Of a stretch of DNA of 64,000 bases, positions 1 to 40,222 are shown piece after piece; within the stretch, counting starts at the first letter, position 1, and each line of letters starts with the position of its first letter. A program made the translations under genes and the position numbers. Source of the DNA: Felis catus (lineage: Eukaryota); the NCBI RefSeq assembly GCF_018350175.1, contig NC_058377.1, positions 61,628,001 to 61,692,000 of the forward strand, in the 5' to 3' direction. The notes beneath the pieces are model-generated. The model was not told the DNA's origin and did not search any database. It saw only the letters and a list, made by a program, of their open reading frames with translations.

Positions 1-1946
1 GATACCCTATGTCTTTTGGTTGGCGCATTGAATCCATTTACATTCAGTGTTATTATAGAAAGATACGGGTTTAGAGTCATTGTGATGTCTGTATGTTTTA
101 TGCTTGTAGTGATGTCTCTGGGACTTTGTCTCACAGGGTCCCCCTTAGGGTCTCTTGTAGGGCTGGTTTAGTGGTGACAAATTCCTTCAGTTTTTGTTTG
201 TTTGGGAAGACCTTTATCTCTCCTTCTATTCTAAATGACAGACTTGCTGGATAAAGGATTCTCAGCTGCATATTTTTTCTGTCTAGCACCCTGAAAATCT
301 CGTGCCAATTCTTTCTGGCCTGCCAAGTTTCAAAAGAGAGATCAGTCACGAGTCTTATAGGTCTCCCTTTATATGTGAGGGCACGTTTACCCCTTGCTGC
401 TTTCAGAATTTTCTCTTTATCCTTGTATTTTGCCAGTTTCACTATGATATGTCGTGCAGAAGATCGATTCAAGTTATGTCTGAAGGGAGTTCTCTATGCC
501 TCTTGGATTTCAATGCCTTTTTCCTTCCCCAGTTCAGGAAAGTTCTCAGCTATTATTTCTTCAAGTACCCTTCAGCACCATTCCCTCTCTCTTCCTCCTC
601 TGGGATACTAATTATGCGTATATTATTTCTTTTTAGTGTATCACTTAGTTCTCTAATTTTCCCCTCATACTCCTGGATTTTTTTATCTCTCTTTTTCTCA
701 GCTTCCTCTTTTTCCATAACTTTATCTTCTAGTTCACCTATTCTCTCCTCTGCCTCTTCAATCCGAGCCGTGGTGGTTTCCATTTTGTTATGCATTTCGT
801 TTAAAGCATTTTTCAGCTCCTCGTGACTGTTCCTTAGTCTCTTGATCTCTGTAGCAAGAGATTCTCTGCTGTCCTGTATACTGTTTTCAAGCCCAGCGAT
901 TAATTTTATGACTATTATTCTAAATTCACTTTCTGTTATATTATTTAAATCCTTTTTGATCAGCTCATTAGCTGTTGTTATTTCCTGGAGATTCTTCTGA
1001 GGGGAATTCTTCCGCTGGTCATTTTGGATAGCCCCTGGTGTGGTGAGGACCCTAGGGCACTTCCCCTGTGCTGTGGTGTATAACTGGAGTTGGTGGGCGG
1101 GCCGGGGTCCGACCTGATGTCTGCCCCCAGCCCACCGCTGGGGCCACAGTCAGACTGGTGTGTGCCTTCTCTTCCCCTCTCCTAGGGGCGGATTCACTGT
1201 GGGGTGGCGTGGCCCATCTGGGCTACTTGCACACTGCCAGGCTTGTGATGCTGGGGATCTGGCGTATTAGCTGGGATGGGTAGGCAAGTTGCACAGGGGC
1301 AGGAGGGGCAGGCTTACCTCGCTTCTCCATTGGTGATCCACTTCAGGAGGGACCCTATGGCAGTAGGAGGGAGTCAGATCCGCTGCAGGAGGTTTGGCTC
1401 CCCAGAAGCACAGAGTTGGGTGTTTGTGCGGAGGGAACAAGTTCCCTGGCAGGAACTGGTTCTCTTTGGGATTTTGGCTGGGGGATGGGCGGGGGAGATG
1501 GCCTTGGCGAGTGCCTTTGTTCCCCACCAACTGAGCTCTGTAGTCCGGGGGCTCAGCAGCTCTCCCTCCCTTTGTCCTCCAGCCTTCCCGCTTTCTGAGC
1601 AGAGCTGTTAACTTATGACCTCCCAGACGCTAAGTCGCGCTTGCTGTTGGAACACAGTCCACCCGGCCCCTCCGCTTTTGCAAGCCAGACTCGGGGGTTC
1701 TGCTTGGCCGGCGAGCCGCCCCTCCGCCCCGGCTCCCTCCCTTCAGTCGTGGAGCGCGCACCGCCTCGCCGCCCTTCCTACCCTCTTCCGTGGGCCTCTC
1801 GTCTGCGTTTGGCTCCCGCGACTCCGTTCTGCTAATCCTCTGGCGGTTTTCTGGGTTATTTAGGCAGGTGTAGGTGGAATCTAAGTGATCAGCAGGACGC
1901 GCGGTGAGCCCAGCGTCCTCCTAAGCCGCCATCTTGCCGCTATCTC
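1..1946 (-). mobile_element. LINE-1 5' part (5'UTR, frameshifted ORF1, start of ORF2); runs off the window edge
   Basis: 5' end has the YY1-type motif CAAGATGGCG (1927-1936) and a CpG-rich UTR. ORF1 ATG is at 1022 with frameshifts (pieces 553-795 and 131-472 are L1 ORF1p-like). ORF2 ATG at 80 reads MTLNPYLSIITLNVNGFNAPTKRHRV (endonuclease N-terminus). Confidence 0.95.
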
Positions 1947-2258
1947 AGCAGAATTTCAACTGTTTCTACAAACACTCAATGACTCACTATTTTCGCTTCC
2001 CAGATCTACCCAAGACAATTCCATCTGGGTTTAACCCTAAAATATGTTTTTCTTAGTGTTATCTTGTGTATGCTTAAGAATAAGTTAAAATGCAAGATAA
2101 TAGGATATCTAGGAGAATTGAGAATATCATTCATTTATTTTTCTCAACAATTTTAAGTGCTTTAGGGAAATACATTGGAAACTTTGGCATTTATTATCCT
2201 TCTACGTTTATTGAGAGTTACTTATGGATTCTCTTTATTCCCGTTGCTCATTCAGTTT

Positions 2259-2376: not shown

Positions 2377-3316
2377 TTAACAATGTGTGCTGATGGGGGA
2401 CAAAAGCAAAATTATTCGGTCTTGAATCTGTTTGGTCTTCACCCCATAAATGATGGGGTTTACCATAGGGGGCACTACCACATAGAGGTTGGCTACCAGG
2501 ATGTAGATGTGCTGAGGGATGGTTTTACCCCCAAAACGATGGGCAAAAAAGGAAAATAATGCTGGGGCATAAAACATAAGTATGACACAGATGTGGGAAC
2601 CACATGTGTTGAGGGCCTTGAATCTAGCAGACCAGGAAGGTATCTGAAACACTGTGCAAAGGATCATCGCATAGGACATAATGATGAACACAATGTCTAG
2701 TCCTGTAGACAGTAGGACCACAGTCAGGCCATAAATGATGTTGACACTGATATTGTCACATGCCAATCTGGCAATGCCCATGTGCTCACAGTAGGAATGG
2801 GGAATGATGTTTCTCCCACAATACGTAAGTCGGTGTACCGGGAAGATGAATGGAAAACAGATGATAAAGCTCCTGACCACAGCTGTGATGCCAAATTTCC
2901 CAGTGGCTGAGGAGGTTAAGATTGTGGTATATCTCAGTGGGTGACAGATGGCCACATAGCAGTCAAATGCCATGGCCAGGAGAATAGCAGATTCTACCAC
3001 AAAGAGGAAATGGATGAAGAACATCTGAGATACACAACTACCAAAGGATATATCCATGGAATGGAACCAGAAGATGGCCAGCATCTTGGGGGCTGTGGCT
3101 GTGGAGAGCAGGACAACTGATAAGGCCAGCATGGAAAGGAAGACATACATAGGCTCATGGAGATGGCGCTCAGTTACAATCAGGAAGATCAAGAAGATGT
3201 TGCCTATGACAGCCAAAATGTACATAGAACAGATAGGGATGGAGATCCAGGTATGAGAATCTTCCAGTCCTAGGATTCCAGTCAGGACATACCACATTGT
3301 AAGAGAAAGGGGCCAT
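2377..3316 (-). pseudogene. OR52Z1: Class I olfactory receptor, family 52 (OR52Z1-like); ORF 3297-2377 is open but the gene is probably disabled
   Basis: OR motifs LHEPMY, MAFDCYVAICHPLRY, HSYCEHM, KALNTCGSH, PPMVNPIIYGVKTKQI. The likely native ATG at 3316 (MAPFSYN) is out of frame with the body. No N-terminal N-glycosylation sequon; DRY->DCY. Symbol assigned from position next to OR51V1. Confidence 0.7.
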
Positions 3317-10600: not shown

Positions 10601-11521
10601 TCAATATATTTTCAGAGAAAAGAGTCTGAGCATTCTGCTACGAATCTGCTGGGTCTTGACACTGTAGATGATGGGGTTCATCAAAGGTGGAAAAAGGATG
10701 TAGATGTTGCCCATAAGTACATGGACCACAGGGGAGAGATGCTTGCCAAAACGGTGCATCATTGTGAGGCTAATGATAGGGATGTAGAACACGAGAACAG
10801 CACAAATGTGGGAGACACAAGTCTGAAATGATTTATGCCGCTCCTCCTGAGAGGCAATTACTAGCACTGACCTAAGAATCAGGAAATAGGAGTAAAGGAT
10901 CAAAATAGCATCCAACAATAGTGTGAAAATGACCAGCATCAGGGCATAGTAGCTATTGAATCTTATATCTGAGCAAGCGAAGCGGAGAAGATCCTGGTGT
11001 AGGCAGAATGAGTGAGAGAGGATGTGGGAATGGCAGTAATGGAAAAATTTCAGATTGATGATGGGGGGTGTAATAAAGAAGAAACTCCTACCTACTATGG
11101 CGAGCCCAATTTTGAAAATCCTGGAATTAGTCAGAATGGAGGAATAACGCAGTGGATTACAAATAGCAACATACCTATCAAAGGCCATCGTAAGGAGAAC
11201 AGAGGACTCCATGAAGGAAAGACCATGGATAAAATAGGACTGGGCAATGCAGGAATTCAGGCTGATTTCTCGAATGAACCCCCACAGGATCCCCAGCACT
11301 GTGTGGAATGTGGACAGCCCCATGCACAGGTCAGTGAGGGCCAGCATGGCCAGGAAGTAGAACATGGGTTGGTGCAGGCTGGGCTCTGTCCGGATCACAT
11401 GTAGCACCATGCAATTGCCCGAAAGCACCATGGCATAGATGGTCAAAAAGGGAATGGAGATCCAGGGATACTGCTGCTCCAGGCCAGAAAATCCAGTGAG
11501 AAGAAAGGAGGAAGAATTCAT
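10601..11521 (-). CDS. OR51V1: Olfactory receptor 51V1, intact single-exon ORF, 306 aa from the first ATG
   Basis: LHQPMFYFL, MAFDRYVAICNPLRY, HSFCLHQD, PPLMNPIIYSVKT. Protein closely resembles OR51V1 as I recall it, in the expected position 3' of HBB. The ORF-track start at 11536 is a TTG. Confidence 0.92.
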   Translation of the reverse strand: MNSSSFLLTGFSGLEQQYPWISIPFLTIYAMVLSGNCMVLHVIRTEPSLHQPMFYFLAMLALTDLCMGLSTFHTVLGILWGFIREISLNSCIAQSYFIHGLSFMESSVLLTMAFDRYVAICNPLRYSSILTNSRIFKIGLAIVGRSFFFITPPIINLKFFHYCHSHILSHSFCLHQDLLRFACSDIRFNSYYALMLVIFTLLLDAILILYSYFLILRSVLVIASQEERHKSFQTCVSHICAVLVFYIPIISLTMMHRFGKHLSPVVHVLMGNIYILFPPLMNPIIYSVKTQQIRSRMLRLFSLKIY

Positions 11522-14785: not shown

Positions 14786-15893
14786 AAAACAAGCTAAATT
14801 CAAATACATTGTAAAAAATGTTGTGAAATCTAAACACTCATATCTTGAAGTACACATCTGGCCCTTGCTAGCCATTTGCTACAAAATATGTGTCATCCTA
14901 TGAAAGTTTTATATAATATGTAAAACAGATGCAGCACTAGGCATTCCTGCTGACCCTGAACACAATACTCAGAACCCAAATATGATTCTTATCATTCACA
15001 ACCTGACCCAGACATGGAAGCTTGGCCATGGGATTGGTATCAAAAGATTGAAACATTCTGTGAGTATAGGCATACATTAAAAGCCATACTCTCATTCAAG
15101 CTTCTTCAGACTAGCCACGAAGGTTAATGGTGCTGCCTCAATGTTGGAGAATTTTTTTTAATTCTATTTTGAGATAGGGTGGAAATTAGGAGAAGATAGG
15201 GCTGACGAGATGAATAAATAAAGATTTCAAGAAGAAAGTGGTTAGATATGTCAGATGCACTGTATGCTCCATCTGTATCAACAAGGGAAAAAAGAATATC
15301 ATTTCCCCAAACATCATGCTATGCTATGGTCCCTCAAAGTCAGTGTGTGTAATATTTCTTTCTGAATTTCTAGCAACCAGAACAATGCCAGGCACAAAAT
15401 AAATAATTAGTGAGGACAAGCAGCAGTGAAGTTGAGTCGAGGGCAGTGGTAGGAGATTATGGGGCTGGCTCCGTACGCTTTGTCTGGAATGTTGATTTGG
15501 AAACCCTATCTGTGATCAAATTAAACAGACCGTTCTTTCAGAAGAGTCTTTTCTTACATCCTTTAATTCAAACTTACCTACATGTTCAGTTACCTCTGCA
15601 TTTCTTTTATTTATTTTTTTTTCTGTTCTTTGGAAATGATCCTCTATTTGATTACTTGCTGCCTTTTTCTCAGATTAGGAAGGGTAATGACCAACAGTCT
15701 GTATTTACCCTAAAGGAATAAAGGAAGATTGTTGGATCTAAAAGTCAGAGCCTTTTCAGTATATTGAATAAAAAACATCTGTTTGCCAGGATAGTCCAGG
15801 TTTCTGCTTGTTTACTCATAGCATTATTTAATGACACTCATACACAACCTGCTTTGGACAATAAATTAAATGGTCTCATTCTTTGAGTAATCC

Positions 15894-15946
15894 CTCTAAT
15901 GGTCCCATTTGGACACCAGAAGGGGGTAGAAGCAGCCCATTGAATT
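15894..15946 (+). promoter_or_regulatory. Orthologue of the beta-globin 3'HS1 CTCF site (core CCAGAAGGGGGTAG, 15916-15929)
   Basis: 12/14 match to CCASYAGRKGGCRS. Flanks CTCTAATG...AGAAG...TGAATT match the 3'HS1 site as I recall it. Lies between HBB and OR51V1. Confidence 0.7.
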
Positions 15947-16602
15947 GTCCCCTCTTCAGGGATGCATAAAGCAAGTTTACTTTAGAACTGGGTAAGTGTA
16001 AGTGAGGCCAAGCCCTTCAGAGTCTTGGCATGGCTGAAGAAATAAGACCCTTCTATAACACTGATCCAAAAAACTGGGCGTTCAGGAGTTCTCAGTGTGT
16101 TAGCGTTGGAGGTGACTTATTTACCACAAACCCACAATAGGCTTAAAATCCCAGTTTACAGGGATGGTTAGTTACTATTATTCATTTTGTGAATATTCTC
16201 TTTATTATGTATTATTTATTTATCTATTCTTATTATATATTTCTTACTAATTGTATTATATAAGATGTCTATAAATAATAATCTCATTATAGTTAAAATA
16301 TTGAAAAATGATTATCCATAATTTAGAACCATGATAAAAATTTAACTGTGGTCATTCTGGTGTTTGAGAAGTTTCTGTCAGGATTCTTATAGTTTGATTG
16401 TACTATGATTCAAATGATCTGTATCAAGGAAATTTATCTGTTTTAACGCTTCTTCTATATTTAAGACAATGTAAGAAAACTGAAATAAAAACCAGACATA
16501 ATAAGATGTCAAACACTGAATGAAAGACAAAAAACAAGCGGAAGTGGTTGTAAGTGGCAACTAAATCTATCTTTAATCATACTAAAATAAGCAATTAATT
16601 TT

Positions 16603-16666
16603 TTTTGCGGGGGGAGAGTGTGTGCAAAAGTGGGAGAGAGGGGCAGAGGGAGAGAGACAGAGAGAG

Positions 16667-16707
<41 letters not shown>

Positions 16708-16828
16708 CTTAAGTAGTCTCCATGCTCAGCACCAAGCCTAATGAGGGACTCAATCTCAAAACACTGGGATTATGACCTGAGTTGAAGTCAAGAGTCAGAT
16801 ACTCAACCCACTGAGCAACCGAGCCCCA
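16603..16828 (-). mobile_element. Older CAN-SINE with (GA)n
   Basis: Antisense head at about 16760-16828, GA tract 16650-16704. Confidence 0.85.
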
Positions 16829-17245
16829 GCAGTTAATTTTTTTAGTATAAACACTGTAAGTGTTACAAATGTTTTTTTTTAATTTTTTTTAAATTTACAT
16901 CCAAGTTAGTTAGTATATAGTGCAACAATGATTTCAGGAGTAGATTCCTCAATGCCCCTTACCCATTTAGCCCATCCCCCCCCTGCCACAAACCCTCCAG
17001 TAACCCTCTGTTTGTACTCCATATTTAAGAGTCTCTTATGTTTTGTCCACCTCCCTGTTTTTATATTATTTTTGTTTCCCTTCCCTTATGTTCATCTAGT
17101 TTGTCTCTTAAAGTTCTCATATGAGTGAAGTCATATGATGTTTGTCTTTCGCTGACTAATTTCACTTAGCATAATACCCTCCAGTTCTATCCATGTAGTT
17201 GCCAATGGCAAGATTTCATTCTTTTTGATTGCCGAGTAATACTCC

Positions 17246-17248
<3 letters not shown>

Positions 17249-17288
<40 letters not shown>
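17249..17288. repeat. (AT)n microsatellite within L1
   Basis: Read directly. Confidence 0.95.
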
Positions 17289-17291
<3 letters not shown>

Positions 17292-19104
17292 ATCTTCTTT
17301 ATCCATTCATCCATCGATGGACATTGGGGCTCTTTCCATACTTTGGCTATTGTTGATAGTGCTACTATAAACATGGGGGTGCATGTGTCCCTTCGAAACA
17401 GCCCACCTGTATTCCTTGGATAAATACCTAGTAGTGCAATTGCTGGGTCATAAGGTAGTCCTATTTTTAATTTTTTGAGGAACCTCCATACCGTTCTCCA
17501 GAGTGGCTGCAACAGCTTGCATTGCCACCAACAATGCAAAAGAGATTCTCTTTCTCCAATCCTCACCAAAGTCTGTTGTTGCCTGAGTTGTTAATGTTAA
17601 TGATTCTGACAGATGTAAGGAGGTATCTCATAGTGGTTTTGATTTGTATTTCCCTGATGATAAGTGATGTTGAGCATTTTTTAATGCGTCAGTTGGCCAT
17701 CTGGATGTCTTCTTTGGAGAAGTGTCTATTCATGTCTTTTGCCCATTTCTTCGCTGGATTCTTTGTTTTGTGGGTGTTGAGTTTGATAAGTTCTTTATAG
17801 ATTTTGGATACTAACCCTTTATCTGATATGTCATTCGCAAATATCTTCTCCCATTCTGTCAGTTGCCTTTTAGTTTTGCTGATCATTTCCATTGCTGTGC
17901 AGAAGCTTTTTATTTTGATGAGGTCCCAGTAGTTCATTTTGGCATTTGTTTCCCTTGCCTCCAGAGACGTGTTGAGTAAGAAGTTGCTGCAGCCAAGATA
18001 AAAGATGTTTTTGACTGGTTTCTCCTGGAGGATTTTGATGGCTTCCTGTCTTACATGTAGGTCTTTCATCCTTTTGAGTTTATTTTTGTGTATGGTGTAA
18101 GAAAGTAGTCCAGGTTCAGTCTTCTTCAGGTTGCTATCCAGTTTTCCCAGCACCACTTGCTGGAGAGACTGTCTTTATTCCACTGGATATTCTTTCCTGC
18201 TTTGTCAAAGATTAGTTTGCCATACGTTTGTGGATCCATTCCTGGGTTGTATATTCTGCTCCACTGATCTGAGTGTCTGTTCTTATGCCAGTACCATACT
18301 GTCTTGATGATTACAGTTTTGTAGTATAGCTTGAAGTCCAGGACTGTGATGCCTCCTGCTATGGTTTTCTTTTTCAAGATCGCTTTGGCTATTCAGGGTC
18401 TTTGCTGTTTCCATACAAATTTTAGGATTATTTGTTCTAGCTCTNNNNNNNNNNNNNNNNNNNNNNNNNNNNNNNNNNNNNNNNNNNNNNNNNNNNNNNN
18501 NNNNNNNNNNNNNNNNNNNNNNNNNNNNNNNNNNNNNNNNNNNNNNNNNNNNNNNNNNNNNNNNNNNNNNNNNNNNNNNNNNNNNNNNNNNNNNNNNNNN
18601 NNNNNNNNNNNNNNNNNNNNNNNNNNNNNNNNNNNNNNNNNNNNNNNNNNNNNNNNNNNNNNNNNNNNNNNNNCAATTTTGAATGGGATTGATTCCTTGA
18701 TTTCTCCTTTTGTTGCTTCATTTTTGGTGAATAGGAATGCAACCGATTACTGTGCCTTGATTTTATATCCTGCAATTTTGCTGAATTCATGAATCAGTTC
18801 TAGCAGTTTTTTGGTGGAATCCTTTGGGTTTTCCATATATAATATCATGTCATCTATGAAGAGTGAAAGTTTGACCTCCTCCTGGCTTATTTGGATGCCT
18901 TTTATGTCTTTGTGCTGTCCCTTGCAGAGGCTAAGACTTCAGTACTATGTTGAATAACAGTGGCAAGAGTGGACATCCCTGTCTTGTTCCTGACCTTAGA
19001 GGGAAAGCTCTCAGTTTTTCCCCATTGAGGATGATATTAGCTTTGGGTCGTTCATATATGGCTTCTATGATCTCGAGGTATGATCCTTCTATCCCTACTT
19101 TCTT

Positions 19105-22100
19105 TTTTTTCCCTTTTTTTAAAAATGAAATTTATTGTCAAATTGGTTTCCATAAAACACCCAGTGCTCATCCCAACAGGTGCCCTCCTCAATGCCCATC
19201 ACCCACTTTCCCCTCCCTCCCAACCCCCATCATCCCTCAGTTTATTCTCAGTTTTTAAGAGTATCTTATGATTAGGCTCCCTCCCTCTCTTTTTTTTCCC
19301 TTCCCCTCCCCCAAGGTCTTCTGTTAAGTTTCTTAGGATCCACATAAGAGTGAAAACATATGGTATCTGTCTTTCTCTGTATGACTTATGTCACTTAGCA
19401 TAACACTCTCCTGTTCCATCCATGTTGCTACAAAAGGCTATATTTCATTCTTCTCATTGCCACATACTATTCCATTGTGTATGTAAACCACAATTTCTTT
19501 ATCCATTCATCAGTTGGTGGACATTTACTCTCCTTCCATAATTTGGCTATTGTTGAAAGTGCTGCTATAAACATTGGGGTACAAGGGCCCCTATCCCTCA
19601 GGACTCCTGTATCCCTTGGGTAAATTTCTAGTAGTGCTATTACTGGGTCCTAGGGCAGATCTATTTTTAATTTTTTGAGGAACCTCCACACTGTTTTCCA
19701 GAGCGGCTGCACCAGTTTGCATTCCTATCAACAGGGTAAGAGGGTTCCCATTTCTCCACATCCACTCCACACCTATAGTCTCCTGTTTTATTCATTTTAG
19801 CCACTCTGACTGNNNNNNNNNNNNNNNNNNNNNNNNNNNNNNNNNNNNNNNNNNNNNNNNNNNNNNNNNNNNNNNNNNNNNNNNNNNNNNNNNNNNNNNN
19901 NNNNNNNNNNNNNNNNNNNNNNNNNNNNNNNNNNNNNNNNNNNNNNNNNNNNNNNNNNNNNNNNNNNNNNNNNNNNNNNNGTTTGGTGAGTTCTTCATAG
20001 ATTTTGGATACTAGCCCTTTGTCTGATATGTCATTTGCAAATATCTTTTCCCATTCTGTTGGCTGCCTTTTAGTTTTGTTGTTTCCTTTTCAGTGCAGAA
20101 GCTGTTTATCTTCATGAGGTCCCAAGAGTTCATTTTTGCTTTTAATTCCCTTGCTTTTGGAGATGTGTCAAGTAAGAAATTGCTGCAGCTGAGGTCAGAG
20201 AGGTTTTTTTTCCTGCTTTCTCCTCTAGGGTTTTGATGGTTTNNNNNNNNNNNNNNNNNNNNNNNNNNNNNNNNNNNNNNNNNNNNNNNNNNNNNNNNNN
20301 NNNNNNNNNNNNNNNNNNNNNNNNNNNNNNNNNNNNNNNNNNNNNNNNNNNNNNNNNNNNNNNNNNNNNNNNNNNNNNNNNNNNCTTTCTTGCTTTGTCA
20401 AAGATGAGTTGGCCATACGTTTGTGTGTCTAGTTCTGGGGTTTCTATTCTATTCCATTGGTCTGTGTGTCTGTTTTTGTGCCAATACCGTGCTGTCTTGA
20501 TGATTACAGTTTTGTAGTAAAGGCTAAAGTATGGGATTATGATGTCTCCTGCTTTGGTCTTCTTCAATATTACTTTGGCTATTCAGGGTCTTTTGTGGTT
20601 CCATACAAATCTTACGATTGCTTGTTCTAGCTTTGAGAAGAATGTTGGTGCAATTTTGGTTGTTGTTTGATTGTTGCATTGAATGTGTAGATAGCTTTGG
20701 GTAGTATTGACATTTTAACAATATTTATTCTTCCAAAGCATGAGCACGGAATGTTCTTCCATTTCTTTGTATGTTCTTCAATTTCCTTCATAAGCTTTCT
20801 ATAGTTTTCAGCATACAGATCTTTTACATCTTTGGTTAGGTTTATTCCTAGGTATTTTATGCTTCTTGGTGCAATTGTGAATGGGATCAGTTTCTTTATT
20901 TGTCTTTCTGGTGCTTCATTGTTAGTGTATAAGAATGCAACTGATTTCTGTACATTGATTTTGTATCCTGCAACTTTGCTGAATTCCTGTATCAGTTCTA
21001 GCAGACTTTTGGTGGAGTCTATCGGATTTTCCATGTATAATATCATGTCATCTGCAAAAAGTGAAAGCTTGACTTCATCTTTGCCAGTTTTGATGCCTTT
21101 GATTTTGTTTTGTTGTCTGATTGCTGATGCTAGCACTTCCAACACTGTATTAAACAACAGTGGTGAGACTGGATATCCCTGTCGTGTTTCTGATCTCAGG
21201 GGGAAAGCTCTCAGTTTTTCCACATTGAGGATGATATTAGCTGTGGGCTTTTCATAAATGGCTTCTATGATGTTTAAGTATGTTCCTTCTATCCCGACTT
21301 TCTCAAGGGTTTTTATTAAGGAAGGATGCTAAATTTTGTCAAAGGCCTTTTCTGCATTGATTGAGAGGATCATATGGNNNNNNNNNNNNNNNNNNNNNNN
21401 NNNNNNNNNNNNNNNNNNNNNNNNNNNNNNNNNNNNNNNNNNNNNNNNNNNNNNNNNNNNNNNNNNNNNNNNNNNNNNNNNNNNNNNNNNNNNNNNNNNN
21501 NNNNNNNNNNNNNNNNNNNNNNNNNNNNNNNNNNNNNNNNNNNNNNNNNNNNNNNNNNNNNNNNNNNNNNNNNNNNNNNNNNNNNNNNNNNNNNNTGGTT
21601 TAGGAATCTAAGTAATGCTGGCTTCATAGAATGAGTCTGGAAGTTTTCCTTCCCTTTCTATTTTTTGGAGCAGCTTCAGAAGGATAGGTATTATCTCTGC
21701 TTTAAATGTCTGGTAGAATTCCCCAGGGAAGCCGTCTGGTCCAGGACTCTTATTTGTTGGGAGATTTTTGATAACTGATTCAATTTCTTCACTGGTTATG
21801 GGTCTGTTCAAGTTTTCTATTTCATCCTGTTTGAGTTTTGGAAGTGTGTGGGTACTTAGGAATTTGTCCATTTCTTCCAGGTTGTCCAGTTTGTTGGCAT
21901 ATAATTTTTCATAGCATTCCGTGATAATTGCTTTTATTTCTGAGGGATTGGTTGTAATAATTCCATTTTCTTTCATGATTTTATCTATTTGGGTCATCTC
22001 CCTTTTCTCTTTTAGAAGCCTGGCTAGAGATTTATCAATTTTGTTCATTTTTTTTCAAAAAACCAACTCTGGTGTCATTTATCTGCTCTACAGTCTTTTT

Positions 22101-25067
22101 TAGATACTATATTGTTTATTTCTGTTCTGATCTTTATTATTTCTCTTCTTCTGCTGGGTTTGGGGTGTCTTTGCTGTTCTGCTTCTAGTTTCTTATGTGT
22201 GCTGTTAGTTTTTGAATTTTGGATTTTTCTTGTTTGTTGAGATAGGCCTGGATTGCGATGTATTTTCCTCTCAGAAGTACCTTTGCTGCATCCCAAAGCG
22301 TTTGAATTGTTGTATTTTCATCTTCATTTGTTTCCACATATTTTTAAATTTCTTCTCTAATTGCCTGGTTGACCCATTCATTCTTTAGTAGGGTGTTCTT
22401 TAACTCCATGCTTTTGGAGGTTTTCCAGACTTCTTCCTGTTATTGATTTCAAGTTTCATAGCACTGTGGTCTGAAAGTGTGCATGGTATGATCTCAATTT
22501 TTGTATACTTATGAAGTATATGAAGTATATACTTATGAAGTATGTGACCCAGTATGTGGTCTATCTTGGAGAATGTTCCATGGGCATTCGAGAAGAAAGT
22601 ATATTCTGGTGCCCTAGGATGCAGAGTTTTGTATATACATCTGTCAAGTCCATCTGATCCAATGTATCATTCAGGGCCCTTGTTTCTTTATTGATCCTGT
22701 GTCTAGATGATCTATGCATTGTTGTTAGTGGGGTATTAAAGTCCCCTACAATTACCACATTCTTATCAATAAGATTGCTTATGTTTGTGATTAATTGTTT
22801 TACATATTTGACGGCTGCTGATATCAGTGCATAGATATTTATAATTGTTACCTCTTCCTGATGGATAGACCCTGTAATTATTATATAATGCCCTTCTTCA
22901 TCTCTTGTTACAGGTTTTAATTTAAAGTCTATTTTGTCTGATCTAAGTATGGCTATTCCAGCTTTCCTTTGACTTCCAGTAGCATGATAGATAGTTTTCC
23001 ATCCCCTCACTTTCAATCTGAAGGTGTCCTCAGGTCTAAAATGAGTCTCCTGTAGACAGCAAATAGATGGGTCTTGTTTTTTTATCCATTCTGATACCCT
23101 ATGTCTTTTGGTTGGAGCATTTAGTCCATTTACATTCAGTGTTATTACTGAAAGATGTGGGTTTGGAGTCATTGTGATTTCTGTAGGTTTCATGCTTGTA
23201 GTGATGTCTCTGGTACTTTGCAGTCCTTGAACATTTCACTCACAGAATCCCCCTTAGGATCTCTTTTCAGATGGTTGATTGGTGATGAATCCCTTCAGTT
23301 TTTGTTTGTTTGGGAAAACCTTTATCTCTCCTATTCTGAATGACAGACTTGCTGGATAAAGGATTTTCAGCTGCATATTTTTTCTGTTCAGCACATTGAA
23401 GATTTCCTGCCATTCATTTCTTGCCTGCCAAGTTTCAGTAGATAGGTCTGCCACTACTCTTATATGTCTACCTTTGTAAGTTAGAGCCTGTTTATCCCTA
23501 GCTGCTTTCAGAATTTTCTCTTTACCCGTGTATTTTGCCAGTTTCACTATATGTCGTGCAGAAGATCGATTCAAGTTATGTGTGAAGGGAGTTCTCTGTG
23601 CCTCTTGGATTTCAATGCTTTTTCCCTTCCCCAGATCAGGGAAGTTCTCAGGTATGATTTGTTCAAGTGCACCTTCAGCCCCTTTCTCTCTCTCTCCTTC
23701 CTCTGGAATTCCTATGATATGGATATTGTTCTGTGTGATTGCACCACTTAGTTCTCTAATTCTCCCCTCATACTCCTGGATTGTTTTATCTCTCTTTTTC
23801 TCAACTTCCTCTTTTTCCATAATTTTACCTTCTAATTCAACTATTCTCTCCTCTGCTTCTTCAATCCTTGCTCTAACTGCCTCAAGTTTATTTTATACCT
23901 CATTTACAGCATTTTTTAGCTCCTCATGACTATTTCTTAGTTTCTTGATCTCTGTAGCAATAGATTCTCTGCTGTCCTCTATGCTTTTTTCAAGCTCAGT
24001 GATTAATTTTATGACTATTATTCTAAATTCTTGTTCTATTATATTACTTAAATCGTTTTCAATCAATTCATTAGCTGTCACTACTTCCTGGAGTTTCTTT
24101 TGAGGAGAATTCTTCCGTTTTGTCATTTTGGGTAGTCCCTGCAGTGGCGTGGAACTGCAGGGCACTTCCCCTGTGCTGTCCTGAGTAACTTGTGTTGGTG
24201 GGGGGCCACAGTCAGACCTGATGTCTGCCCCCAGCTCACCGCTGGGGCCAGTCAAACTGGTGTGTACCTTATCTTCCCTTCTCCCAGGGGCAGGACTCAC
24301 TGTGGAGTGGTGTGGCCCTGTCTGGGCTACTTGCACACTGCCAGGCATGCGGTGCTGCTTCCATGGGATCTGGCCTAGGGCGTATTAGCCGGGTTGGATC
24401 CTTAAGGTGCACAGGGGTGGGAGAGGCAGGCTTAGCTCGCTTTGCCATCAGTGGTCCCCTGCAGGAGGGGACCTGCAGCACCGGAGGGAGGCAGGTCTAG
24501 AGGAGGGATGGATCCACAGAAGCACAGCATTGGGCGCTTGCACAGTGCAAGCAAGTTCAATGATGGGAACTGGCTCCCTTTGGAATTTCGGCTGGGGGAT
24601 GGGAGAGGGAGATGATGCTTGCCAGTGCCTTTGTTCCACCAGCGAGCTGAGCTCTGTCTTCCAGGGCTCAACAACTCTCCCTCCCATTGTCCTTTCTCCC
24701 TCTCCACTCTCCGAGAGCAGAGCTATTGACTTTTAACATTCCAGATGTTAACTCCCCCTGGCTGTCAGAACTCATGAAGTCTGGTGCCTCCGCTTTTGCA
24801 AGCCAGACTTCAGGGGCTCTGCCTTGCCAGGCGGGCTGCCCTTCCACTGCCCCAGCTCCCTCCCACCAGTCTGTGTACCATGCACTGCGTCTCCTTCCTT
24901 GCTACCCTCTTCCATGGGCCTCTTGTCTACACTTGGCTCTGGAGTGTCTGTTCTGCTAGCCTTCTGCCAGTTTTCTGGGTTATTTATGCAGATGTGGGTG
25001 GAATCTAAGTGATCAGCAGGATGAGGTGAGCCCAGCATCCTCCTATGCCGCCATCTTCCCAGGTCTC
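19105..25067 (-). mobile_element. Full-length (about 6 kb) LINE-1 nested in ORF2 of the host L1; ORFs disrupted
   Basis: 5' end GAGACCTGGGAAGATGGCGG; ORF1 ATG 24126; ORF2 ATG 23172 with endonuclease motifs (CCLQETH, GDFNTPL) and RT (LFADDMILY); poly-A at about 19105. 16-bp TSD CTATCCYTACTTTCTT at 19089-19104 and 25068-25083 (1 mismatch). Confidence 0.95.
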
Positions 25068-26150
25068 CTATCCTTACTTTCTTAAGGGTTTTTATCAAGA
25101 AAGGATGCTGTATTTTGTCAAACGCTTCCTCTGTATCTATTGAGAGGATCATATGGTTCTTGTTCTTTCTTTTATTGATGTGATGAATCACATTTATTGT
25201 TTTGCGGATATGGAACCAGCCCTGCATTCCAGGTATAAATTCCGCTTGGTAGTGGTGAATAATTGTTTTAATGTATTGTTGGATCCGGTTGGCTAATATC
25301 TTGTTGAGGATTTTTGCATCCATGTTCATCAGGGAAAATGGTCTATAGTTCTCCTTTTCAGTGGGGTCTCTGGTTTTGGAATCAAGGTAATGCTGGCCTC
25401 AGAGAAAGTTTGGAAGTTTTCCTTCCATTTCTATTTTTTGGAACAGCTTCAAGAGAATAGGTGTTAACTCTTCCTTAAATGTTTGGTAGAATTCCCCTGG
25501 AAAGCCATCTGGCCCTGGACTCTTGTTTTTTGGGAAATTTTTGATTACTAATTTGATTTCTTTACTGGTTATGGGTCTGCTCAAATTTTCTATTTCTTCC
25601 TGTTTCAGTTTTCATAGTGTATATGTTTCTAGGGAAAAAAAAAATTGAATAAATGATGCTAGATCCTAGGTGTGTTTGGGTCTGCGTGTTGAAAGTGGCT
25701 TGTTCGATTAGAGAAAAAAGGGGGAAAAAAGAAATCATTTGAAAATTTGAAAAAATGAATACACTAAAGTAGACTAAAATGAAATGATAGAAGTAAAATA
25801 AAATTTGAACAAATTTACAAAAAAGCAAAAAATATAGTAGAAAAAATTCTAGAAAAATATTTTTAATTAAAACTGAAAATAAAAATGAAGTTTTTCTCTT
25901 TCTGTATTCAAGAAAAATAAAAGAAACAGAAGAGAGAAAAAATAAATAAAAATTAAAATTAAGAAAAGAAAGAAAATTGAATAGATGGACCAGATAACAA
26001 CTGAAATATGACTGAAATTGCTTTATTTTCCCCTAGAAGTCAAACTATGAAGCGCTTTATAGTCCATAAACTAAGCAGGCGGTGAGACTTGTGTTCTTGA
26101 AGAGCAAGGTTGGCCCAGTTGGCTGGGGCTTAGTGTAATGGCTCTGTTCT

Positions 26151-26164
26151 CCACTAGATGGTGC
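26151..26164 (+). promoter_or_regulatory. CTCF-like motif CCACTAGATGGTGC inside the host L1 5'UTR
   Basis: 13/14 match to CCASYAGRKGGCRS; the mismatch is consistent with CpG decay. Binding is not demonstrated. Confidence 0.45.
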
Positions 26165-27619
26165 TGCTAGCCTACTGGGATGCATTCTTGTGGTGCTGGT
26201 AGGTGCTTAGTAGCATGCGCTGGAGTAGTGAAAATGGCGACACCCAGCTACCCAGTCTCTAGTATTGGAACTCTATTCTCCCCAATCAGCAATTGTGTAC
26301 CCGTCCTTCGTCTTCGGCTTCCGTCCACTCCCCGCTTCCACATTGTCTGTGACCAAGCCCCAGGAAGCACCTCCCTCCCTAGTTTTGTCTCAGATGCCAC
26401 TACTTTCCCCGGCCCCCCACTTCTGAGGCACTGCAGCCTTGACCCATTCTTCCCTTTGCAGAGGGTCTCACCGAGCAATGGCCAGGTGCCAGCCACACCC
26501 AGGAGCGCTTGCAGGACCGTGCTTCTGCTGATACCCAGATACTGCGGCCACGTGCCAGCACGCCCCAGAAAAAGTTCGGGAGACAGTGTAGCAGCAGCAT
26601 TTCACGGATTATGGAAAATCACAACACACATCTGACACCAGGCTTCACCCCCAATAACCTTGTTCCAGCACCAGCAAATGTGGCCATTCTCTGGGGTCTG
26701 CTGGGCCCAGGTGGCCTCACAGCCTCTATCAAATGTCCTTCCAGCAGTGGAACCGCTTCTCCCCATGTGGCCCGAGAACCTCTCACATGCTACTTTGCTG
26801 CTCCTGGGGATCCAGCCTTCCTACCAGAGCACCTCCAGGTATTGAGCTGCAGAGTTTCAGACTCTGCACACCCCCTGTTTACAGTCTTAATGGAATTTAA
26901 ACCCTCTCCTTTCTCCTTTCTCCCTTCTCCCTTTTTAGCTCAGTCCCTGCAGCTGTTTCCCATTTTCCACTTTCTCTCCAGCTGCTTTTGGGGAGGCATG
27001 CTTTTCCTGTATTCTCCCACACCCCACCCCCCGCAGCTGTCTCCATCCTCTCTCCTCATGCAAAAGTGGCTCCCTGCCAGCCGCTGCTTCTCTTTCCTCA
27101 AATTCGTCTCTCTGTGCCATGTACCTGCTGAATTCTGTGGTTCAGGTTATGCAGATTGCTGTGTTAATCCTCAGACCCGTTTTCTAGGTGGGCAGGATGG
27201 TTTAGTGTTGGTCTGGCTGTGAGACACACAAAAAACTTCCATGCTGTTCCACCATCTTGGCTCCTCCCAAGTGTTCCACATATTTTAAATTGTCCCCTGA
27301 AGATTACAGAATAGGCCATGACTATCTTATTCATCCCCCATGTTTTCAAGATAAAAAAACTTGCAGGGTCTTTCTAGGAAATTGAGTACCAGAATACACA
27401 CTGCTAGACTCCTGCTGTTGTCCAAGTCATTTCTATGACTTTAATGTAGGCACCAACAATCACCATTTTCATTACTTCTCTTGTTCTGTAATCCTCACAC
27501 AGTGGAGAAGAATAGCTTGGCCAGCAATAAAAAAATGTATTGTCATATTAAATCAGTAAGGTCTTCAGAAAGACCTAGAAAACTGGTGGATATTATAGAA
27601 ATTAATAGTCACATCTAGA

Positions 27620-27825
27620 GAGGTATCAGGATGGTTTAGTTGATTAGGCATCCAACTCTTGATTTGGGCTCAAGTCATGATCTCATGGTTCATGGGTTCA
27701 AGTCCCACATCAGGCTCCTCAATGACACTGAAGAGCCTGCTTGGGATTCTCTCTCTCTCTCTCTCTGCCCCTCCTGTGCTGGCTCTCACTGTCTCTCTCT
27801 GTCTCTCTCTCTCAAAAATAAATAA
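27620..27825 (+). mobile_element. Older CAN-SINE
   Basis: Degenerate head, (CT)n, AATAAA tail; flanking ACATCTAGA repeats. Confidence 0.85.
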
Positions 27826-28499
27826 GTTTTAAAAACAGTTACATCTAGAATTATGATTTATTCATGTAAATTTTATTACCATGATCATGTTTATATGCTT
27901 GACAGAAATGCTATTAATAATGAAATTTTGAATTCACATACTGGCATTAATTTCCAGTTCCACCCTCCTTTACAGGAAGAGGATATAAGAAGAAATAAAT
28001 TAGTTCCTTTGTTCCTGTTTCATCCCCAACAGAGAGAGCACTACTTTGCCGAGAGTGGAACCTAGGCCCAGATAACTGGTTATTGTGTCTCCAGAGCATG
28101 GGAGAGACAGATACCATAGACAAGACTAGAACTGGGGGATTCTCAGATGACTGTTCAAACTTCTTCACAATCAGTGGGAACCCAAACTCCCAAGGGCAAA
28201 AAGGGCTTTCAGGGCACCCCTAGATAACATGCCTTGCCTGCTAGCCCTACTACTGCCACAGAGATGAGGCTCTTAGCTGCAATACCTTGTGCAGAGAGTA
28301 ATGCTGGCCATATCTTAGGATGGTAAGCTTGTGGAGGGGCAAAAGTTAACTCACCCAGTGCAACTCTAACCTTAGCCAGCTGAAGGAAGGGTGAGAATAT
28401 AGCCACAGTATCTCAGGGAAGGGAGTTACTCAAAGCAATTTACCAGGATGTTATTGCTAGGATGTGTTATTTCTGGGGGAAAAAAGATGGTGGGTAGAC

Positions 28500-31000: not shown

Positions 31001-31865
31001 TTTTTTTTTATTCCTATGTATAATTAATGTACTGTGTTATATTAGTTTCAGGTGTACAATATAGTGATTCAACAATTCTATACATTACACAATGCTTTTC
31101 ATGATAAGTGTACTCTTAATACCCATCACCTATTTCCCCATACCCCCCACTTACCTCCCTTCTGGTAACCACCAGTTTCTTCTCTATAGTTAAGAGTCTG
31201 CTTTTTTTATTGTTTGTTTATTTTTTCTTTGTTTGTTTGTATCTTAAATTTCACCTATGAGTGAAATCATAAGGTATTTTCCTTTCTCTGACTAATTTCA
31301 CTTAGAATTATACCCTCTAGATCCATCCATGTTGTTGCAAATGGCAAGATTTCATTCTTTTTATGGCTGAGTAATATTCCATCATATATACATACCACAT
31401 CTTCTATATCTGTTAATGTATCGATGGATACTTGGGTTGCTTCAATAGTTTGGCTATTGTAAATAATGCTGCAATAAACATAGGAGTGCATATATCTTTT
31501 TGAATTAGTGTTTTCAAATTCATTGGGTAACACTCAGTAGTGAATTTATTGGATGATAAGGTATATCTAATTCTTTGAGGAACCTCCATACTGTTTTCTA
31601 TGGTGACTATGCCAGTTTGCATTCCCACCAATAGTGCATGAAGGTTCCTATGTATCCACATCCTCGTCAACACGTTGTTTCTTGTGCTTTTGATTTAAGC
31701 CATTCTGACAGGTGTGAGGTGATATATCATTGTGGTTTTAATTTACATTTACTGATAATTAGTGATGTGGATCATCTTTTCATGTGTCTGTTGGCAATCT
31801 GTATGTCTTCCTTGCAGAAATGTCTGTTCATGTCTTCTGTCCATTTTTAATAAGATGGTTTGTGG
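31001..31865 (-). mobile_element. 5'-truncated L1 (ORF2 end plus 3'UTR)
   Basis: ORF pieces CTPMFIAALFTIAK and KKNEILPFATTWMDLE; T-run at 31001. Confidence 0.92.
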
Positions 31866-34564: not shown

Positions 34565-35710
34565 TCAGTGGTATCTGTGGGCCAGGGCACTGGCCACACC
34601 AGCCACCACCTTCTGAAAGGCAGCCTGCACCTGGGGGTTGAAGTCATGGCCAAAGTGGTGGGCCAGCACACACACCAGCACGTTGCCCAGGAGCTGTGGG
34701 GAAGAGACAAGAGGTATGTACATGGTTAGCAGAGGGATCCAGCTTAGGCTCAGAGTACCCCAGCCCCATCCACAGATGCAGGTTGTGCACATAGAATATA
34801 AGCAGAAACGTACTGGATTTCAGATGCTGCTATTGATGTGACTCTAACCATATCAGCCTGATTTTACATTTAGAAATGTTTCTTTCCTTCTGACCTAAAC
34901 TGGAACTTAAATATCACGGTTATTCTTTCAAACTATGTAAAGAAGCAATCATATTTTACCCTCCTTGCTTTCAAAGGAAGAGATAAGGGAAAAAATCATT
35001 AGACTAAAAAATTTTAGATGGATTAAGAGAAGTGTTCAAATTAAACACTCAAAATTTTAATTGAAACAATCAAGGAAAGTCATTACAGAGAACAAAAAGA
35101 GGACAAGCAAAGAGGGTGAAATAAAATAGTCCTGAATAGTCCATATTGGTGCAACTAGAATACCTCTTTCCCATTTTAAACAACATCCGGATGTCCATAC
35201 CCTTTATGGACAACATGAGCTTGTCCAGAAAAGGGAAGAGAAGGAAACTACCTCATAGACTCACCCTGAAGTTCTCGGGATCCACGTGCAGCTTGTCACA
35301 GTGCAGCTCGCTGAGCTTAGCAAAGGCGCCCTTGAGGTCGTCGATGTTTTTCAGGCCATCACTGAAGGAGTTCAGCACCTTCTTGCCATGGGCCTTCACC
35401 TTACTGTTGCTCATAATGGCATCAGCAGAAGACAGGTCCCCAAAGGACTGAAAGAACCTCTGAGTCCAGGGGTAGACAACCAGCAGCCTGAGGGGTGAAA
35501 ACAGCACAGAGGGACAGAGGGAGTCAGTGCCTGTCAGAAGCCCCAGGGACTGAGCCTTCTCCACCTGCCCAGCATCCATTCACTCTCCTTAGGCCTGCCT
35601 CGCAACCTGGATACCAACCTGCCCAGGGCCTCACCGCCAACTTCATCCACGTTCACCTTGCCCCACAGGCCATTGACCAGACCCTTCTCCTCAGCACTCA
35701 GAAACGACAT
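34565..35710 (-). CDS. HBB: Adult beta-globin (felid HbB-type chain, MSFLSAEEK...[10 protein letters not shown]); exons 35710-35619, 35487-35265, 34693-34565
   Basis: 92/223/129-nt exons, GT-AG introns (131 and 571 nt), 147 codons, His63/His92, beta-type intron 2 and 3'UTR. Confidence 0.97.
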
Positions 35711-35788
35711 GGTGTCTGTTTGTGTGGTTGATAGCGAACACAGTTGTGTCAGAAGCAAGTGTAAGCTGGTAGCTATCCCTGCTCTTCC

Positions 35789-35870
35789 TTTTATGCCCAG
35801 GCCTGATCTTACCCTCCCTGCTCCTGTGAGCAGATTGGCCCAGGCCTAGGTGTGGTCCTGCAGGGGGAGG
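35789..35870 (-). promoter_or_regulatory. HBB promoter: CATAAAA 35789-35795, CCAAT 35834-35838, variant CACCC boxes 35847-35855 and 35862-35870
   Basis: Canonical beta-promoter spacing from the cap-like ACACTTGC at about 35762. Confidence 0.9.
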
Positions 35871-35917
35871 TCTGAATGATGACAGCCATACCTGTCCTCC
35901 AAATGTTTCAAAAGCAA

Positions 35918-35920
<3 letters not shown>

Positions 35921-35960
<40 letters not shown>
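35921..35960. repeat. (CA)20 directly upstream of the HBB promoter
   Basis: Read directly. Confidence 0.97.
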
Positions 35961-38629: not shown

Positions 38630-39966
38630 TCAATGGTACTTGTGGGCCAAGGCATTGGCCACACCAGCCACCACCTTCTGAAAGGCAGCCTGCACCTGGG
38701 GGTTGAAGTCATGGCCAAAGTGGTGGGCCAGCACACACACCAGCACGTTGCCCAGGAGCTGTGGGGAAGACATAGATAGAAAAATATACATGATTAACAG
38801 AGAAATCAAGCTTGGCTTCTGAGAAACTGAGCCAACAATCTTTTTTTTTCCTGCCCATGCTGTAGCCCAAATTGATCTTCAGGTTATCTCCATAGGCAGA
38901 AATGAGTAACCATATATGTATGTATACTGTATAGTTTTGTTATATATGTTTTATATAATAAGGAACAAATTAATTAGTCTGATGATGGCTGTCTTAGCAA
39001 CTACTGCTTCCCTACTTCCCTACTTCTGGTCTACCATCCTCAGATATTCACTTTCCTTTCCTTTCCATTGAGTCTTGATTCCATAAAATTCCAATTATTC
39101 TTTAATTCTGAACTGATTTTTGGACTCTAGATGACATCTTGAGCCTCTCCCCTTTGAGGAGCCCTTCCAATCCCCATTTGGAGAGATAGAAAGACTATTC
39201 CAAGTGTAGAAGTAGAAGATGAGAGCTAGTATGTATAATTTGGGTACTGAGTAGGGAAAAAAGTTAGGGAGAAAAAGAGAGAAGCAAAAGATAAACTATT
39301 AAGTAAGAGCTTGATTAAAAAAAAAAACAAGAATGTGAGAAAGGAAACGACATGGAATACTGAATGAAAAATATAAAACTACATACATTTTGAAAAGCAT
39401 TCAATGATGATATATTCTAAAGTAAAAAGGAAGCTGGAGGGTGAACAGGTAGGTAAAGGAACCAGAGTAGAAGACTAGAAAGTGAAAAGAAAAAACAAAT
39501 GGAAGATATCCTAGACTCACCCTGAAGTTCTCGGGATCCACGTGCAGCTTGTCACAGTGCAGCTCGCTGAGCTTAGCAAAGGCGCCCTTGAGGTCGTCGA
39601 TGTTTTTCAGGCCATCACTGAAGGAGTTCAGCACCTTCTTGCCATGGGCCTTCACCTTACTGTTGCTCATAATGGCATCAGCAGAAGACAGGTCCCCAAA
39701 GGACTGAAAGAACCTCTGAGTCCAGGGGTAGACAACCAGCAGCCTGAGGGGTGAAAACAGCACAGAGGGACAGAGGGAGTCAGTGCCTGTCAGAAGCCCC
39801 AGAGACTGAGCCTTCTCCACCTGCCCAGCATCCATTCACTCTCCTTAGGCCTGCCTCGCAACCTGGATACCAACCTGCCCAGGGCCTCACCGCCAACTTC
39901 ATCCACGTTCACCTTGCCCCACAGGCCATTGACCAGACCCTTCTCCTCAGCACTCAGAAATCCCAT
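38630..39966 (-). CDS. HBD: Adult beta-type globin at the delta position (HBB/HBD chimera; felid HbA-type chain, MGFLSAEEK...[10 protein letters not shown]); exons 39966-39875, 39743-39521, 38758-38630
   Basis: Intact 147-codon gene. Promoter through exon 2 is nearly identical to HBB. Intron 2 (762 nt) and 3'UTR do not align with HBB and resemble HBD as I recall it. Confidence 0.9.
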
Positions 39967-40044
39967 GTTGTCTGTTGGTGTGGTTGCCAGCGAACACAGT
40001 TGTGTCAGAAGCAAGTGTAAGCTGGTAGCTATCCCTGCTCTTCC

Positions 40045-40126
40045 TTTTATGCCCAGGCCTGATCTTACCCTCCCTGCTCCTGTGAGCAGATTGGCCCAGG
40101 CCTAGGTGTGGTCCTGCAGGGGGAGG
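40045..40126 (-). promoter_or_regulatory. Beta-type promoter on the delta-position gene: CATAAAA 40045-40051, CCAAT 40090-40094, CACCC variants 40103-40126
   Basis: Identical to 35789-35870 (offset 4256). Confidence 0.92.
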
Positions 40127-40182
40127 TCTGAATGATGACAGCCATACCTGTCCTCCAAATGTTCTAAATGTTTCAAAAGCAA

Positions 40183-40184
<2 letters not shown>

Positions 40185-40222
<38 letters not shown>
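40185..40222. repeat. (AC)19 at the junction of the beta-like promoter and an L1 fragment
   Basis: Read directly. Confidence 0.97.

What the first reader, a model, noticed from the sequence alone, without database searches (positions are those of the whole stretch)
15894..26170. Decayed 3'HS1 CTCF core and a possible L1-donated replacement at the original distance
Seen: the 3'HS1-like site reads CCAGAAGGGGGTAG, with two mismatches at normally conserved positions (I recall CCAGTAGGGGGCAG in the characterised site). The nested L1 block added about 10.4 kb, moving it from about 8.2 to about 18.6 kb from the HBB stop. The host L1 5'UTR carries CCACTAGATGGTGC (26151-26164) in the same orientation, about 8.4 kb from HBB, with a TGTAAT resembling the upstream CTCF module. 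Inference: the 3' loop anchor of the globin domain may have turned over to a transposon-derived site.
Basis: inference. Interest (0 to 1): 0.7.

Follow-up and report, generated by a model that had tools for sequence, protein, structure and literature searches.

The report
Jumping-gene CTCF motif beside globin boundary
In this cat-family beta-globin region the known chromatin-boundary site (3'HS1) is still present with a somewhat weaker-scoring sequence, and an old jumping gene next to it carries a strong same-direction boundary motif that other copies of that jumping gene also carry, so it is likely a passenger or backup site rather than a replacement.

Summary
Both motifs are real. Five published human 3'HS1 oligos map in order around 15916, so that site is the 3'HS1 orthologue. 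'Decayed' is overstated. The human core read from a published primer is CCACTAGGGGTCAG, not the quoted sequence. It scores 14.8 bits against 12.5 here. Human, felid and L1 cores each match 8 of 11 specified consensus bases, and the L1 core has the same T12 departure as the felid one. The L1 motif is the window's best (17.1 bits) and has an upstream module at a canonical spacing. It is inherited, though: seven other copies of this L1 5'UTR turned up, 3 of 7 compatible with an intact core, and two CpGs in this copy's footprint appear deaminated. The 'original distance' reduces to 929 versus 1105 bp around the insertion point. No binding or cross-carnivore data could be obtained. Most likely the native site persists as a weaker anchor and the L1 adds a passenger or tandem motif (0.55). 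True turnover, a known mechanism with matching geometry, stays open (about 0.2).

The parts
10601..11521 (-). OR51V1 olfactory receptor gene, landmark 4.4 kb outside the native site
   Evidence: translation; best hit 98% identical, named OR51V1 of Prionailurus viverrinus
15641..16176 (.). Orthologue of the human 3'HS1 region
   Evidence: 5 of 5 published human 3'HS1 oligos have their best ungapped match of the window here, in order (17/23, 15/20, 17/21, 19/20, 17/24)
15916..15929 (+). Native 3'HS1 CTCF core, pointing towards the globin genes; no upstream module at 17-18 nt
   Evidence: 12.5 bits, p 1.4e-5; 8 of 11 consensus bases
16858..16875 (.). Left target-site duplication of the host L1
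   Evidence: 15 of 18 bases match 27269-27286
16876..19088 (-). Host L1, poly(A), 3'UTR and 3' part of ORF2
19089..25083 (-). Nested L1 with its own duplication (15 of 16), 80-85% like the host over ORF2; its 5'UTR is of another type
25084..25632 (-). Host L1 ORF2 segment; starts abruptly inside ORF2, ORF1 absent
25633..27268 (-). Host L1 5' segment (T-rich tract plus about 1.2 kb GC-rich 5'UTR ending in an L1-type 5' terminus); multi-copy family
   Evidence: seven unnamed database ORFs align to 25643-26832
26134..26142 (+). Upstream CTCF module-like sequence, 17 nt before the core
   Evidence: 5 of 6 with published TGCAAT (PMC10287918)
26151..26164 (+). L1-borne CTCF core motif
   Evidence: 17.1 bits, best in window; 8 of 11 consensus bases; T at position 12
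27269..27286 (.). Right target-site duplication of the host L1, ending in TTTT followed by AA (L1 endonuclease-type site, established knowledge)
34565..35710 (-). 3'-most adult beta-like globin gene (reference point for the distances)

Best explanation
The site at 15916 is the felid copy of the 3'HS1 boundary and likely still binds CTCF, more weakly than in human, while an old L1 that inserted 0.9 kb inside it carries a strong same-direction CTCF motif inherited from its family, which would act at most as a second, tandem stop for cohesin. Shown: orthology, both motifs, their orientation, the insertion, and the presence of the motif-bearing segment in other L1 copies. Inferred: that either site is bound; that the 5'UTR motif came in ready-made; that CpG deamination turned the upstream module into a better match and removed all CpG from the footprint. 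If both are bound, cohesin extruding from the globin side would meet the L1 site first and leak through to the native site (tandem-site model, PMC7087399). The near-equal distance to the globin gene follows from where the L1 landed.
For: Native core keeps C1, C2, A6 and the G7-G11 run and matches 8 of 11 consensus bases, as do the bound human site and the L1 site. It is 2.3 bits below human; the 7 bases of the human primer that flank the core are identical. Position 5 is in the NNN stretch. Position 12 is read by Glu362, which accepts 5-methylcytosine, whose methyl equals that of T, and the L1 core has T12 too. Lack of an upstream module is not felid decay: the human template shows a similar non-matching upstream stretch (compared by eye). 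Family origin: 7 of 8 hits are other copies of this 5'UTR (the eighth is unrelated); 3 of 7 are compatible with an intact core, 4 of 7 are damaged. At two codons inside the footprint the copies show Q/W/R and H/C/P, the pattern of an ancestral CpG lost on either strand; this copy has TG at both. CpG O/E near the motif is 0.30, against 0.50 in the young L1 5'UTR at 1020-1945, whereas turnover elements tend to show less CpG decay. Distance match equals 929 vs 1105 bp; a published anchor shift of about 39 kb preserved structure.
Against: A 12.5-bit hit is at chance level for this window (1.29 expected), and two promoter hits score higher (13.5), so the score cannot show binding; matrix scores track measured affinity at only rho 0.33. 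If the quoted sequence is ancestral, the felid lineage lost 5.1 bits and human 2.8. Felid and human cores differ at 4 of 14 bases, no better than the flanking oligos. The L1 site has an upstream module, which raises affinity, and no CpG left to methylate. Only 1 of the 7 other copies has residues matching this copy at both the core and the upstream-module codon. The nested 5'UTR has lower CpG O/E (0.19) than the host's (0.29). The family sample is biased towards copies like this one, and amino acids hide third codon positions (core 12, 9, 6, 3).
Confidence: 0.55

Rival explanations
1. Turnover: the L1 motif is bound, is met first by cohesin from the globin side, took over the 3' anchor, and the native site then drifted and is now weak or unbound.
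For: Same orientation, inner position, best motif of the window plus upstream module. The LTR41/MER82 case has this geometry. The host L1 looks old (duplication 15 of 18; 80-85% to the nested L1 over ORF2), which leaves time for drift. Native core carries two low-frequency bases (A5 12%, T12 7%).
Against: Motif is inherited and often retained in other copies (3 of 7); footprint CpGs are lost; native site is only 2.3 bits below a bound human site; turnover was reported for 0.94% of human and 3.7% of mouse loops; no binding or timing data.
Confidence: 0.22
2. Neither site matters: constraint on 3'HS1 is relaxed in felids, the native core is drifting, and the L1 motif lies in silenced repeat chromatin.
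For: Disruption of mouse 3'HS1 did not change globin expression (Bender 2006 as cited in PMC8500713; loops lost but mRNA not reduced, PMC4100494). Core identity with human (10 of 14) is no higher than flanks. CpG depletion across the 5'UTR.
Against: The CC and AGGGGG parts of the native core are intact; in human the site is bound in nearly all cell types examined; a 17-bit core with upstream module and no CpG is the kind of site that is often bound (inference).
Confidence: 0.2
3. The 10.4-kb block is misassembled, so the L1 5'UTR does not lie here in this form.
For: Four N gaps (757 bases) inside the block; 5'UTR joined directly to mid-ORF2.
Against: Both L1s have matching duplications in proper nesting; no gap lies between 21596 and 44656, so the motif, the right junction and the globin gene are on gap-free sequence.
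Confidence: 0.03

Closest known systems
Human 3'HS1 CTCF site of the beta-globin locus (PMC8500713; PMC5647940)
   Same: Orthologous sequence, next to OR51V1, motif pointing towards the globin genes; 8 of 11 consensus bases; no canonical upstream module.
   Different: Core differs at 4 of 14 bases and scores 2.3 bits lower; binding and looping are shown in human and untested here.
LTR41-derived anchor decommissioning a MER82-derived CTCF site (PMC6979391)
   Same: A younger element places a same-orientation motif on the inner side of an older, still recognisable site.
   Different: There binding, loops and a deletion test exist; here only sequence. The donor is an L1 5'UTR, and its footprint shows CpG loss rather than the reported hypomethylation signature.
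L1M3f- and L1MC1-derived loop anchors (PMC6979391; PMC9902604)
   Same: L1-derived CTCF motif at a domain border.
   Different: For L1M3f the ancestral site is lost; here it is retained. Donor is a carnivore-type 5'UTR (family name not determined).
Tandem CTCF sites (PMC7087399)
   Same: Two same-orientation motifs in series, with predicted leak-through of cohesin.
   Different: Spacing 10.2 kb, one member transposon-borne; occupancy unknown.

Membership tests
3'HS1 orthologue | Position between OR51V1 and the 3'-most beta-globin gene | tested here: met
   the human gene order itself is recalled
3'HS1 orthologue | Collinear sequence homology to human 3'HS1 | tested here: met
   5 of 5 oligos best-match in order
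3'HS1 orthologue | CTCF motif pointing towards the locus | tested here: met
   human 3'HS1 and HS5 are convergent
3'HS1 orthologue | CTCF occupancy, hypersensitivity and loop to HS5 | not testable with these tools
   one search listed no ATAC run for the stretch; HS5 was not identified in the window
Transposon-mediated CTCF anchor turnover | CTCF motif inside a lineage-restricted element near the ancestral anchor | tested here: met
   lineage range of the insertion not determined
Transposon-mediated CTCF anchor turnover | Orientation concordant with the ancestral anchor | tested here: met
   both on + strand; a one-in-two chance
Transposon-mediated CTCF anchor turnover | Ancestral motif lost or decayed | tested here: inconclusive
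   12.5 vs 14.8 bits; 8 of 11 like human
Transposon-mediated CTCF anchor turnover | Reduced CpG decay in the co-opted copy | tested here: inconclusive
   2 of 2 readable footprint CpGs appear lost; O/E 0.30; no nucleotide consensus or matched control copies, so this leans against but is not the published test
Transposon-mediated CTCF anchor turnover | Binding and looping moved to the element-derived site | not testable with these tools
   no felid binding data obtained
Transposon-mediated CTCF anchor turnover | Native decay follows the insertion in the phylogeny | not testable with these tools
   no other carnivore locus obtained

The most novel reading that the evidence does not exclude
An old carnivore L1 family carried a complete CTCF site (core plus upstream module, sharpened by CpG deamination) in its 5'UTR and seeded such sites across carnivore genomes; one copy took over the textbook 3' boundary of the beta-globin domain in cats, leaving 3'HS1 to drift.
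Probability: 0.2. Interest if true: 0.55.

Novelty: new member of a known kind. Interest (0 to 1): 0.27.

Why it matters
If turnover is real, it would be a natural replacement of one of the best-studied boundary sites, whose deletion raises fetal haemoglobin in human cells (PMC8500713) but does little in mouse, and it would give a testable case of how anchors move. The mechanism is already published (PMC6979391), so the gain is a good example, not a new principle. The side result, a CTCF core plus upstream module as a family trait of a carnivore-type L1 5'UTR, did not appear in my searches (PMC9902604 passages name SINEC_Cf as the enriched dog subfamily) and can be checked directly against existing dog CTCF ChIP data.

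Tried and rejected
No genome is held for this window, so copy number of the L1 5'UTR in this genome was not counted. A degenerate 3'HS1 pattern in metagenome contigs and an L1-motif pattern in metagenome, viral and prokaryote contigs gave 0 matches; these collections are not expected to hold mammalian DNA. The sequencing-run search for 15600-16200 restricted to ATAC libraries listed none; that is no evidence, and it left no runs to lay on the sequence. A stop-free frame across the native site found no protein homologue. Paper searches for the quoted and observed cores found one unrelated paper; '3 HS1' found none; searches for felid CTCF or ATAC data showed none in the listings or in passages of PMC4922064. 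Farrell 2002 is not held, so the mouse 3'HS1 sequence was not checked. A published HBB-to-3'HS1 distance was not found; about 20 kb in human is my recall only and is not used as evidence. Supplement 7 of PMC8500713 holds expression tables only (part 1 of 3 read); its zip files were not opened and may show the motif. A second register at 15910-15928 (10.5 bits, 4 of 6 upstream bases at 18 nt) was considered as a rescue and set aside as weak. Earlier findings of the scan held nothing on this locus. P0130, the eighth hit, was dropped as an unrelated repeat protein.

Full report
Setting. The window holds a felid beta-globin cluster on the minus strand: four beta-like genes between 34565 and 55275, OR51V1 at 10601-11521 (98% to a Prionailurus protein, 94% to hyena) and an OR52-type gene at 2377-3297 (family label from recall). 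No whole genome is held.

Observation. The host L1 is bounded by a duplication at 16858 and 27269 (15 of 18 bases), 10,411 bp apart, and contains a nested L1 of 5,979 bp with its own duplication (15 of 16). Four gaps (757 N) lie inside the block. Distances to the stop at 34565 are 18,636 (native), 8,401 (L1 site) and 8,225 (native minus insert). With a CTCF matrix typed from recall, the L1 site is the best hit of the window (17.1 bits) and the native site is fourth (12.5 bits, p 1.4e-5) (one line of that output mis-indexed the native site by one base, and one search gives the correct value). Markov resamples gave a 17-bit hit in 8 of 100 window-size sequences and 1.29 hits of 12.5 bits on average.

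The native site is 3'HS1. The key-resources table of PMC8500713 lists guides and primers for human 3'HS1. All five have their best ungapped match of the whole window between 15641 and 16176, in order. One primer spans the motif and gives the human core CCACTAGGGGTCAG. Human scores 14.8 bits, felid 12.5, L1 17.1; on the 14-base core alone 16.7, 14.4 and 16.4. Against the published core CCNNNAGGGGGCGC (PMC10287918) each of the three matches 8 of 11 specified bases (67 of 125,676 window positions reach this). Of the two 'mismatches', A5 is in the NNN stretch and T12 is shared with the L1 core; position 12 is read by Glu362, which accepts 5-methylcytosine (PMC10484683). Against my reading: if the quoted sequence is ancestral it would score 17.6 in these flanks, so the felid lineage would have lost 5.1 bits and human 2.8; felid and human cores agree at only 10 of 14 bases; and a 12.5-bit score cannot show binding, since matrix scores correlate with measured affinity at rho 0.33 (bioRxiv 10.64898/2026.01.05.696797). 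The fair word is weakened, not decayed.

The L1 motif is a good site and an inherited one. TGTAAT begins 17 nt before the core, 5 of 6 with the published upstream optimum; 1382 of 125,614 window positions do as well at 17 or 18 nt. The native site has no such module (0-1 of 6), and by eye neither does the human template. To ask whether the motif belongs to the family, I translated a stop-free 49-codon frame over it and searched protein collections, where gene callers sometimes mis-call repeat DNA. One search returned 8 hits; 7 align to 25643-26832 of the window over long stretches and are 65-76% identical in the aligned frame, so they are other copies of this 5'UTR; their organisms are unnamed. 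Three of 7 have residues compatible with an intact core, four are damaged. At two codons between module and core, the six alignable copies read Q/W/R (2, 2, 2) and H/C/P (3, 2, 1). That is the pattern expected from ancestral CpGs deaminated on either strand (inference). This copy has TG at both, and at core 12-13, and no CpG in the footprint. So the site was probably methylated in the germ line, which leans against long-standing protection (turnover elements show fewer such changes, PMC6979391). The same changes improved the upstream match and made the site insensitive to methylation, which leans the other way; only 1 of the 7 other copies matches this one at both core and module codon. Limits: the sample favours look-alikes, and third codon positions are hidden.

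The distance argument is empty. The native site lies 929 bp outside the insertion point and the L1 motif 1,105 bp inside the L1's 5' end. Any motif in the 5'UTR of a minus-strand L1 inserted here would fall within about a kilobase of the 'original' distance. Other carnivore repeats between the L1 and the gene (a SINE at 27671-27835, an L1 3' piece at 31235-31846) mean 8.2 kb is not an ancestral figure either. In the LTR41 case the anchor moved about 39 kb with structure preserved.

Mechanism. Most likely (0.55) the native site remains a weaker anchor and the L1 adds a same-orientation motif 10.2 kb inside it, either unused or acting as a tandem stop that cohesin meets first (PMC7087399). Turnover (0.22) has the right geometry and precedent but lacks binding and timing evidence; it was reported for 0.94% of human and 3.7% of mouse loops. 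Relaxation with neither site used (0.2) fits the lack of an expression phenotype in mouse. Misassembly is unlikely (0.03): no gap lies between 21596 and 44656.

What could not be tested. No felid binding data and no other carnivore locus were obtained.

Papers seen. PMC8500713: passages, Results part 1 of 3, supplement 7 part 1 of 3. PMC10287918 and PMC10484683: passages and one section each. PMC6979391, PMC9902604, PMC7087399, PMC5647940, PMC4100494, PMC2358975, PMC12452803, PMC4922064, PMC12824704, PMC12551408 and bioRxiv 10.64898/2026.01.05.696797: passages only. Bender 2006: only as cited. Farrell 2002: not held. No description of this felid arrangement or of this L1 motif appeared in the listings; subscription journals and repeat databases were not searched.

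Verdict. A real and tidy arrangement, of a known kind, with the replacement claim unproven and its distance argument void. Interest 0.27; 0.55 if turnover were shown.

Noticed in passing
window 25620-25640 (minus strand): The host L1's 5'UTR joins directly to the middle of ORF2; ORF1 and the start of ORF2 are missing, yet one duplication brackets the whole element. An internally deleted L1; whether deleted before or after insertion is unknown.
   Followed up: partly
window 35854-35872 and 40110-40128 (+): Both adult beta-like promoters carry an identical CTCF-like hit (13.5 bits) that outscores the native 3'HS1; it overlaps the CACCC-box region (label recalled) and has no upstream module. Probably a matrix false positive.
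   Followed up: partly
window 35253-35957 and 39509-40222: The two adult beta-like genes are 97.5% identical over 714 bp (promoter to exon 2) but show no long match in intron 2, a pattern that suggests gene conversion.
   Followed up: no
window 35840-35855 and 40096-40111 (minus strand): The proximal CACCC box of both adult promoters reads CCACACCT, one base off the KLF1 consensus as I recall it.
   Followed up: no
window 1-1950 (minus strand): A younger L1 with a CpG-rich 5'UTR (O/E 0.50), 80% like the nested L1; it has no CTCF hit above 8 bits with uniform background, so the motif is specific to the older 5'UTR type.
   Followed up: partly
window 2377-3297 (minus strand): Intact 306-codon OR52-type gene; not checked against the human OR52A1 enhancer (HPFH) region.
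   Followed up: no
proteins P0123-P0129: Seven single-member database 'proteins' are mis-called ORFs from this L1 5'UTR; such records can be used to sample repeat families.
   Followed up: yes
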